Source: Escherichia coli (GTDB lineage Bacteria; Pseudomonadota; Gammaproteobacteria; Enterobacterales; Enterobacteriaceae). From it: 64,000 bases of DNA. Where the stretch lies: assembly GCF_003334765.1 (NCBI RefSeq), contig NZ_QOWT01000020.1. One strand, written 5' to 3'. Below the pieces are notes generated by a model. That model did not search any database. It was not told where the DNA came from and saw only the letters and a list, made by a program, of their open reading frames with translations. Shown piece by piece: positions 19,150 to 19,240 of this stretch. Each line of letters opens with the position of its first letter. The first letter of the stretch is position 1. The translations under genes and the position numbers were made by a program.

Positions 19150-19168
19150 TATAATGATACGCATTATC
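19150..19168 (+). promoter_or_regulatory. Fur box overlapping the fur promoter and uof start
   Basis: tataatgatacgcattatc resembles the 19-bp Fur consensus gataatgataatcattatc. Confidence 0.6.
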
Positions 19169-19240
19169 TCAAGAGCAAATTCTGTCACTTCTTCTAATGA
19201 AGTGAACCGCTTAGTAACAGGACAGATTCCGCATGACTGA
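19154..19240 (+). CDS. uof: Upstream ORF of fur (leader peptide, 28 aa)
   Basis: MIRIISRANSVTSSNEVNRLVTGQIPHD; stop at 19238-19240 overlaps the fur ATG at 19233, giving translational coupling. Confidence 0.75.
   Translation: MIRIISRANSVTSSNEVNRLVTGQIPHD

What the first reader, a model, noticed from the sequence alone, without database searches (positions are those of the whole stretch)
19150..19240. Fur box, uof leader ORF and fur start packed into 90 bp
Seen in sequence: the Fur-box-like tataatgatacgcattatc overlaps the ATG of a 28-codon ORF (MIRIISRANSVTSSNEVNRLVTGQIPHD) whose stop overlaps the fur ATG. Established knowledge: translation of uof is coupled to fur translation and is the point where the sRNA RyhB acts. 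This is a compact autoregulatory unit that ORF-length cut-offs would miss.
Basis: partly seen in the sequence, partly recalled or inferred. Interest (0 to 1): 0.3.

Follow-up and report, generated by a model that had tools for sequence, protein, structure and literature searches.

The report
Known uof leader ORF before fur
This is the already described E. coli K-12 control region of the iron regulator gene fur: a Fur-binding site, the 28-codon leader ORF uof and the fur start. It is ordinary, but the Fur box is also the -10 element of the main fur promoter, whose mRNA starts inside uof and so cannot encode it.

Summary
Window 18900-19700 is 100% identical to E. coli K-12 fldA-uof-fur. RefSeq annotates the ORF 19154-19240 as "uof: fur leader peptide", and the peptide passes NCBIfam NF011344. 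The Fur-box match (19150-19168, 16/19) is the only one in 64 kb.

Two corrections:
- **Stop position.** The uof stop (19238-19240) does not overlap the fur ATG (19233-19235). The ORFs overlap by 8 nt (ATGACTGA).
- **Promoter overlap.** The Fur box coincides with the TATAAT -10 hexamer (19150-19155) of the main fur promoter. Published TSS mapping puts its start at A19163, in uof codon 4. uof can therefore be translated only from rarer, longer transcripts (starts at 19051 and 19020, or read-through from fldA).

Across 80 Enterobacterales species, the promoter/Fur box, a leader hairpin with compensatory changes (19185-19205) and the fur ribosome-binding region are conserved. The uof ORF itself changes frame, fuses to fur or is truncated, as in Salmonella and Klebsiella.

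A published Term-seq table lists an abundant, unexplained RNA 3' end at 19234.

Verdict: already known, low interest.

The parts
18414..18944 (+). fldA (flavodoxin 1), the upstream gene; read-through from the fldA and ybfE promoters is one source of uof-containing mRNA
   Evidence: RefSeq annotation; NCBIfam NF006735, 403 bits; ybfE-fldA-uof-fur operon
18951..18982 (+). fldA intrinsic terminator hairpin (GCGGCGTAGAC-TCAT-GTCTACGCCG) with a mapped RNA 3' end at 18982
   Evidence: Sequence; Term-seq 3' end 710897(-), intrinsic terminator score 19.7
19015..19051 (+). Puof: promoter-like TTGTAA-18-TACAAT with a mapped TSS at 19051 (8 reads); a second minor TSS lies at 19020 (5 reads). These transcripts contain the uof ATG
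   Evidence: Promoter scan; TSS 710051 and 710082 assigned to uof; Puof named
19127..19163 (+). Main fur promoter: -35 TTTTCA (19127-19132), 17-nt spacer, -10 TATAAT (19150-19155), TSS A19163 (46 reads, 70-nt 5'UTR). The TSS lies in uof codon 4
   Evidence: Best promoter-like site, 10/12; TSS 709939; 'Fur box overlaps Pfur-a -10'; 'Pfur located within the uof ORF'; -35 and -10 near-invariant in 80 species
19150..19168 (+). Fur box, 16/19 to consensus (hexamers TATAAT GATACG c ATTATC); it overlaps the -10 hexamer, the uof ATG and the TSS
   Evidence: unique in the window, 0.02 expected; conservation 13-16/19 in most Enterobacteriaceae
19154..19240 (+). uof, the 28-codon leader ORF (MIRIISRANSVTSSNEVNRLVTGQIPHD), stop TGA at 19238-19240
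19169..19171 (+). uof codon 6, Ser-UCA, reported to need MiaB-modified tRNA-Ser
   Evidence: Sequence; literature; UCA at codon 6 in only 15 of 44 species with a coupled ORF
19172..19191 (+). Candidate RyhB pairing segment. GAGCAA (19173-19178) is complementary to RyhB UUGCUC (nt 42-47), which includes G44/C45, the bases reported as required. The assignment is inferred, not shown
   Evidence: Local duplex of -10.9 to -11.3 kcal/mol, not above background; G44/C45 requirement; RyhB sequence verified
19185..19205 (+). Conserved leader hairpin (UCACUUC-uucuaau-GAAGUGA) inside uof codons 11-18
   Evidence: Present in each species' own fold; 90.8% paired against 34-51% when slid, and 6 of 7 pairs with changes on both sides
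19219..19222 (+). fur Shine-Dalgarno AGGA, 10 nt before the ATG, within the near-invariant AACAGGACAGATTCCGC
   Evidence: Anti-SD duplex -4.0 kcal/mol; conservation
19233..19240 (+). uof-fur junction ATGACTGA. It holds the fur ATG, plus a TGA in each of the other two frames (19234-19236 and 19238-19240)
   Evidence: Sequence; frame analysis; ACT at fur codon 2 in 77 of 80 species
19234..19234 (+). Abundant RNA 3' end (the U of the fur AUG), neither Rho-dependent nor an intrinsic terminator; unexplained
   Evidence: Term-seq 710645(-), 137,086 and 180,817 reads on two entries of the table
19233..19679 (+). fur (ferric uptake regulator, 148 aa)
   Evidence: NCBIfam NF006999, 309 bits

Best explanation
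This is the known fur control region of E. coli K-12, and it works in two layers that act on different mRNA isoforms.

Layer 1, transcription. Fe-Fur binds the Fur box at 19150-19168. The box covers the -10 hexamer and the start point (A19163) of the main fur promoter, so Fur occludes its own promoter. That Fur binds here is taken from the literature; the overlap is shown here. The resulting mRNA has a 70-nt leader that begins in uof codon 4, so it cannot initiate uof at its ATG.

Layer 2, translation. Longer transcripts start at 19051 or 19020 (Puof) or read through the fldA terminator, and they carry the uof AUG. Ribosomes translating uof terminate at UGA 19238-19240, 3 nt past the fur AUG, which favours fur initiation by translational coupling (literature). 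RyhB pairing near the 5' part of uof blocks uof initiation and so lowers Fur synthesis when iron is scarce (literature; the pairing site is inferred here). Decoding of UCA6 by MiaB-dependent tRNA adds a second iron input (literature).

The Uof peptide itself is probably irrelevant. Only the act of translation matters, because in other genera the ORF reaches the fur start in a different frame with an unrelated peptide.

Conserved at the order level are the promoter/Fur box, a leader hairpin (19185-19205) and the fur ribosome-binding region. The intact uof, UCA6 and the RyhB seed complement are lineage-restricted additions.
For: Identity:
- 100% match to K-12, with uof annotated.
- NF011344 at 85.2 bits against a cut-off of 71.
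- EcoCyc leader-peptide list.

Fur box and promoter:
- Fur box unique in the window.
- The -10 overlaps the uof ATG.
- TSS at A19163 with 46 reads, against 8 and 5 reads for the uof TSSs at 19051 and 19020.
- Independent statements that Pfur lies inside uof and that the Fur box overlaps its -10.

Coupling, RyhB and MiaB: reviews and papers citing Vecerek 2007.

Comparative data:
- The ORF from TATAATG reaches the fur start in 48 of 74 species, against about 20 expected from shuffles.
- It does so in another frame in Mangrovibacter, Cedecea and Buttiauxella B2.
- Peptide conservation is limited to the parts that overlap the Fur box or the fur ribosome-binding region.
- The hairpin shows covariation.
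Against: - I could not read the primary paper, so coupling and the RyhB site rest on secondary descriptions.
- RyhB-uof pairing is not distinguishable from background by duplex energy. Others reported the same problem.
- RyhB lowered the short fur mRNA but not the Puof uof-fur mRNA on northern blots. This fits poorly with a model in which RyhB acts only through uof initiation.
- The main TSS gives an mRNA without the uof AUG, so the quantitative weight of coupling in vivo is unclear.
- uof is truncated in Salmonella, Klebsiella, Atlantibacter, Pantoea and others, and a control frame is open in 31 of 74 species.
- uof has only a weak, distant SD.
- I found no ribosome-profiling table that lists uof.
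Confidence: 0.85

Rival explanations
1. uof is mostly an incidental ORF. Its ATG exists because TATAAT+G belongs to the -10/Fur box. Its stop exists because the fur start ATGACTGA carries stops in both other frames. The 25 codons in between stay open partly by chance. Most Fur is made from the short mRNA through fur's own SD, so coupling is a minor effect specific to Escherichia and Citrobacter.
For: - The TSS at 19163 has 46 reads, against 13 for the two uof TSSs.
- The ATG is explained by promoter/Fur-box conservation, which holds even where the ORF is cut after 4-16 codons.
- ATGACTGA is conserved in species without uof.
- A control frame is open in 31 of 74 species.
- The SD is weak.
- UCA6 and GAGCAA are lineage-restricted.
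- RyhB affects the short mRNA.
Against: - Published reporter, toeprint and mutational work is reported to show coupling and RyhB control through uof.
- Openness of the ATG frame is about 2.4 times the shuffle expectation.
- The ORF stays open after frame-changing indels in several genera.
Confidence: 0.12
2. The 28-aa Uof peptide is itself a functional small protein that acts in trans.
For: It is annotated as a protein family, and its termini are conserved among close genera.
Against: - The conserved termini coincide with the Fur box (MRRII) and with the hairpin and fur ribosome-binding region (EVNRLATGQIPHD).
- The middle is variable and has indels.
- In Mangrovibacter, Cedecea and Buttiauxella the ORF uses another frame and gives an unrelated peptide.
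- It is truncated in many genera.
Confidence: 0.02
3. uof is a transcription-attenuation leader peptide of the trpL/hisL type, controlling a terminator in front of fur.
For: It is a short leader ORF with a hairpin inside it, and an abundant RNA 3' end lies at 19234.
Against: - No terminator-like site lies between uof and fur.
- The 3' end has an intrinsic terminator score of 1.13 and a Rho score of 1.10, both negative.
- The hairpin is not followed by a U-run.
- There is no run of regulatory codons.
Confidence: 0.01

Closest known systems
uof-fur of E. coli K-12 (b4637; Vecerek, Moll and Blasi 2007, EMBO J 26:965; NCBIfam NF011344 'fur leader peptide')
   Same: The sequence is identical. It has the same 28 codons, the same fldA-uof-fur synteny, the same UCA at codon 6 and the same overlap with fur.
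   Different: Nothing differs; this is that locus. I add only that the uof ATG sits inside the -10 hexamer of the main fur promoter, and that conservation across the order lies in RNA and DNA elements rather than in the ORF.
Fur-box autoregulation of fur (19-bp consensus GATAATGATAATCATTATC; de Lorenzo et al. 1988, cited)
   Same: A 16/19 match that overlaps the -10 and the TSS, the classical promoter-occlusion geometry.
   Different: Here the box also contains the start codon of a leader ORF used by other transcripts.
Other sRNA-targeted, translationally coupled leader ORFs (for example GcvB on thrL, or CsrA on the uORF of iraD; cited)
   Same: A regulator acts on initiation of a short upstream ORF whose termination next to the main start drives downstream translation.
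   Different: In uof-fur an internal promoter makes an isoform that bypasses the leader ORF's start. fur also has its own SD-like AGGA.
Attenuation leader peptides (trpL, hisL, pheL)
   Same: A short leader ORF upstream of the regulated gene, listed together with them by EcoCyc.
   Different: There is no terminator and no regulatory codon run. Control is translational, not by transcription termination.

Membership tests
uof / fur leader peptide (NF011344, b4637) | Sequence matches the curated family model above its cut-off | tested here: met
   85.2 bits against a cut-off of 71, full length 1-28. The model is built from these same enterobacterial sequences, so the match shows identity, not translation.
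uof / fur leader peptide (NF011344, b4637) | Lies between fldA and fur, with its end overlapping the fur start | tested here: met
   fldA 18414-18944, uof 19154-19240, fur 19233-19679; 8-nt overlap
uof / fur leader peptide (NF011344, b4637) | uof is translated and fur translation depends on it | not testable with these tools
   Only secondary literature; primary paper not held; no profiling table lists uof
uof / fur leader peptide (NF011344, b4637) | RyhB base-pairs at the uof translation initiation region | tested here: inconclusive
   GAGCAA 19173-19178 complements RyhB nt 42-47 (including G44/C45), but the duplex energy is within background. Published predictors also fail on this pair.
uof / fur leader peptide (NF011344, b4637) | Ser-UCA at codon 6 (MiaB-dependent decoding) | tested here: met
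   TCA at 19169-19171; matches the description
Fur box operator | Close match to the 19-bp consensus, beyond chance | tested here: met
   16/19; the only hit in 64 kb; 0.02 expected
Fur box operator | Overlaps core promoter elements of the regulated gene | tested here: met
   -10 at 19150-19155 and TSS at 19163 both lie inside the box
Fur box operator | Bound by Fe-Fur | not testable with these tools
   Known from the literature (de Lorenzo 1988, reference listed); not read here
Translationally coupled ORF pair | Upstream stop within a few nt of the downstream start | tested here: met
   The TGA begins 3 nt after the last base of the ATG
Translationally coupled ORF pair | Downstream start is weak or masked without upstream translation | tested here: inconclusive
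   fur has AGGA 10 nt upstream (-4.0 kcal/mol). The predicted leader folds do not clearly sequester it and are no more stable than shuffles.
Attenuation leader peptide | Terminator hairpin plus U-run between the leader ORF and the gene | tested here: not met
   None found; Term-seq intrinsic terminator score of 1.13 at 19234

The most novel reading that the evidence does not exclude
Most fur mRNA starts at A19163 and lacks the uof AUG. Fur synthesis in vivo might therefore be governed mainly by an undescribed leader-RNA layer rather than by uof coupling. That layer would comprise the order-wide conserved hairpin (19185-19205), the near-invariant AACAGGACA...CCGCAUGACUGA segment, and a processing or stalling event that leaves a very abundant RNA 3' end exactly at the fur AUG (19234). 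The product could be a stable leader RNA of about 72 nt (19163-19234).
Probability: 0.15. Interest if true: 0.45.

Novelty: already known. Interest (0 to 1): 0.1.

Why it matters
The finding adds nothing new to biology. uof-fur has been described since 2007, is in EcoCyc and is annotated by RefSeq. Its value is as a positive control, showing that the first-stage reader can pick out a functional 28-codon leader ORF from raw sequence.

The useful refinements concern experiments:
- The uof start codon is physically part of the -10 hexamer and of the Fur box.
- The main fur mRNA does not contain the uof start.
- What evolution conserves here is the promoter/operator, a leader hairpin and the fur initiation region, not the ORF.

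Tried and rejected
- **Whole-molecule RNAduplex of RyhB against the leader.** It gave meaningless structures with giant loops.
- **Windowed duplex scan with the RyhB core.** It did not single out uof. The best local sites were 19298-19318, inside fur, and 19040-19090, so I do not claim a pairing site from energy alone.
- **RNAalifold on a plain MAFFT alignment of the hairpin region.** It predicted no pairs because different loop lengths put the 5' arms out of register. I replaced it with a covariance-model alignment, which leans towards the structure, so the slid controls and the per-species folds carry the argument.
- **Global folds of the short and long leaders.** They are no more stable than shuffles (z -1.2 and +0.14), so I found no evidence for a larger structured element or for sequestration of the fur SD.
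- **Rfam.** No family covers the leader.
- **Papers not held.** Vecerek 2007, Zheng 1999 and Thomason 2015. The Conway 2014 supplements are not held either.
- **Ribosome-profiling supplements.** uof is not listed in either one I searched.
- **Synonymous-site test of fur codon 2.** ACT is used in 77 of 80 species, but the first ~14 fur codons are all constrained, and ACT is kept in species without uof. The test therefore does not show selection for the uof stop.
- **Attenuator model.** Rejected.
- **Functional Uof peptide.** Rejected on frame changes.

Full report
**Observation.** The plus strand reads TATAATGATACGCATTATC at 19150-19168. The ATG at 19154-19156 opens a 28-codon ORF, MIRIISRANSVTSSNEVNRLVTGQIPHD, which ends with TGA at 19238-19240. 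fur (148 aa) starts at 19233. The Fur-box consensus with up to three mismatches hits only this site in the 64-kb window, with 0.02 hits expected. The uof stop does not overlap the fur ATG. The junction is ATGACTGA, so the stop begins 3 nt after the last base of the ATG and the ORFs overlap by 8 nt. The ATG is built into any good Fur box, since consensus positions 5-7 read ATG.

**Identity.** Window 18900-19700 is 100% identical to E. coli K-12 MG1655 and is present in 5425 of 5426 complete E. coli genomes. The annotation there reads 'fldA | uof: fur leader peptide | fur'. A 131-nt query across the element is at least 95% identical in all of them, and uof is annotated in every one of the 25 genomes sampled down the ranking, the weakest at 98.5% identity. 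The peptide passes NCBIfam NF011344 'fur leader peptide' (85.2 bits, cut-off 71), and Fur and FldA pass their equivalog models. EcoCyc lists uof among its leader peptides. I could not read the primary paper, Vecerek et al. 2007. Several papers summarise it as follows:
- fur translation is coupled to uof, and RyhB blocks uof initiation.
- RyhB G44/C45 are required.
- Ser-UCA at uof codon 6 needs MiaB-modified tRNA. Codon 6 here is TCA at 19169-19171.

**Promoter geometry.** This is the main refinement. The best sigma-70-like site in the region is TTTTCA-17-TATAAT, with the -10 at 19150-19155. The last two bases of the -10 hexamer are therefore the A and T of the uof ATG. Genome-wide TSS mapping (Kim et al. 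2012, Table S1) gives these starts:

| K-12 coordinate (U00096.2) | Window position | Reads | Assigned to | Note |
|---|---|---|---|---|
| 709939 | A19163 | 46 | fur | 70-nt 5'UTR; 8 nt past the -10; in uof codon 4 |
| 710051 | 19051 | 8 | uof | matches the second promoter-like site, TTGTAA-18-TACAAT |
| 710082 | 19020 | 5 | uof | minor start |

Two other papers say the same thing in words. One states that the Fur box overlaps the Pfur-a -10 and that the fur starts lie within uof. The other states that Pfur is 'located within the uof ORF'. The region is also part of a ybfE-fldA-uof-fur operon with three promoters, and the fldA terminator end maps to 18982. It follows that the Fur box sits on the promoter of an mRNA that cannot initiate uof, and that uof coupling can act only on longer, apparently rarer transcripts. 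Northern data add that RyhB lowered the short fur mRNA but not the Puof transcript. This does not fit easily with RyhB acting only through uof initiation.

**RyhB.** I verified my recalled RyhB sequence in E. coli genomes and by Rfam RF00057. GAGCAA at 19173-19178 complements RyhB nt 42-47, which include G44/C45, and it is present in both isoforms. The duplex energies (-10.9 to -11.3 kcal/mol) lie within the background for random windows. Published predictors also fail on this pair. The pairing site is therefore inferred, not shown.

**Comparative analysis.** I analysed 80 fur loci from Enterobacterales species representatives. Conserved elements:
- TATAATGA and the -35 GTTTTCATTT are near-invariant.
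- The fur initiation region AACAGGACA..CCGCATGACTGA is near-invariant.
- The Fur-box match is 13-16 of 19 in most Enterobacteriaceae and degrades in Pantoea.

ATGACTGA carries a stop in both non-fur frames. The ORF that starts in TATAATG behaves as follows:
- It reaches the fur start in the E. coli frame in Escherichia, most Citrobacter, Enterobacter, Kosakonia, Phytobacter, Leclercia and Kluyvera.
- It reaches the fur start in the other frame, with an unrelated peptide, in Mangrovibacter, Cedecea neteri and Buttiauxella B2.
- It is in frame with fur, with no intervening stop, in four species.
- It is cut early in Salmonella arizonae (16 codons), Klebsiella oxytoca, Raoultella, Atlantibacter, Pantoea (4 codons), Erwinia, Hafnia and Edwardsiella. 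Y. enterocolitica is also reported to lack uof.

The ATG frame is open in 48 of 74 species against about 20 expected from shuffles, but a control frame is open in 31 of 74. Evidence for selection on the ORF is therefore moderate. Peptide conservation is confined to the stretches that overlap the Fur box or the hairpin and fur initiation region. UCA at codon 6 occurs in 15 of 44 coupled ORFs, and GAGCAA occurs only in Escherichia. fur codon 2 is ACT in 77 of 80 species, but the whole 5' end of fur is synonymously constrained, so this does not single out the uof stop.

**Leader hairpin.** Each species' own fold shows a stem-loop at a fixed distance from the fur ATG. The stems differ but remain complementary: CACUUC/GAAGUG, ACUUCC/GGAAGU, GCUCC/GGAGC, CGCUCA/UGAGCG and GCCC/GGGC. 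On a covariance-model alignment:
- 90.8% of cells pair, against 34-51% when the partners are slid.
- 6 of 7 pairs change on both sides.
- 41 cells show double changes, against 12.5±2.9 in shuffles.
- G·U pairs fit an RNA on the sense strand.

Two caveats apply. The alignment was fitted to the structure, and the double changes probably represent only a few events. No Rfam family covers the leader, and the global leader folds are not unusually stable.

**Unexplained.** The Term-seq tables of Adams et al. 2021 list an RNA 3' end at 710645(-), which corresponds to window 19234, the U of the fur AUG. It has 137,086 reads in LB at OD 0.4 and 180,817 on a second entry of the table. That is more than the fldA terminator end (47,785). 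Both the Rho score and the intrinsic terminator score are negative. The paper's main text does not mention fur.

**Verdict.** The finding is real and correctly identified, but it is already known. My contributions are the corrected junction geometry, the promoter/ORF overlap and its consequences for experiments, and the picture of what is conserved across species.

Noticed in passing
window 19234: A very abundant RNA 3' end sits exactly at the U of the fur AUG, which is the boundary of uof codons His27 and Asp28. It appears in published Term-seq tables, is neither Rho-dependent nor an intrinsic terminator, and is not discussed in that paper. With the TSS at 19163 it would define a leader RNA of about 72 nt.
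   Followed up: partly
window 19185-19205: A conserved stem-loop in the fur leader, inside uof, has compensatory base changes across Enterobacteriaceae. No Rfam family covers it. Its function is unknown.
   Followed up: yes
window 19233-19240: The fur start ATGACTGA puts a TGA in both alternative frames, so any upstream ORF in either frame ends at the fur start. The motif is kept in species that lack uof.
   Followed up: partly
L055, L056, L058, L061 (about 66-69 nt upstream of fur): In Enterobacter sp. R1, Buttiauxella izardii, B. agrestis and Dryocola, the ATG inside TATAATG is in frame with fur and no stop intervenes. Long transcripts could therefore encode a Fur with 22-23 extra N-terminal residues.
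   Followed up: no
window 19004-19240: The uof frame is open for 78 codons upstream. An in-frame ATG at 19043 is again the tail of a -10-like hexamer (TACAAT+G, Puof). The extension is closed in E. albertii and in another E. coli representative, so it is probably chance.
   Followed up: partly
window 19226: A mapped RNA 5' end (709876, 28 reads) lies only 7 nt upstream of the fur ATG, downstream of the SD. It could be a minor start or a processing site.
   Followed up: no
window 34703-36127 (+): miaB lies about 15.5 kb from uof in the same window (TIGR01574, 739 bits). Its Fe-S enzyme makes the tRNA modification said to be needed for decoding uof codon 6. This is probably coincidental linkage.
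   Followed up: yes
window 19215-19232: AACAGGACAGATTCCGC around the fur SD is near-invariant across the order, more than an SD alone would need. It contains A-R-N repeats and a GGA motif, which from memory resemble Hfq and CsrA binding motifs. This is a lead only and was not tested.
   Followed up: no
window 19687-19770 (-): Sub-threshold Rfam hits (STnc370 at 29 bits against a gathering score of 54, plus STnc50 and isrD) fall on the fur-chiQ intergenic terminator region. They are most likely generic terminator-hairpin matches.
   Followed up: no
E. coli genome collection: One of the 5428 matching places for the fldA-uof-fur segment is on a plasmid, and one complete genome lacks the segment.
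   Followed up: no
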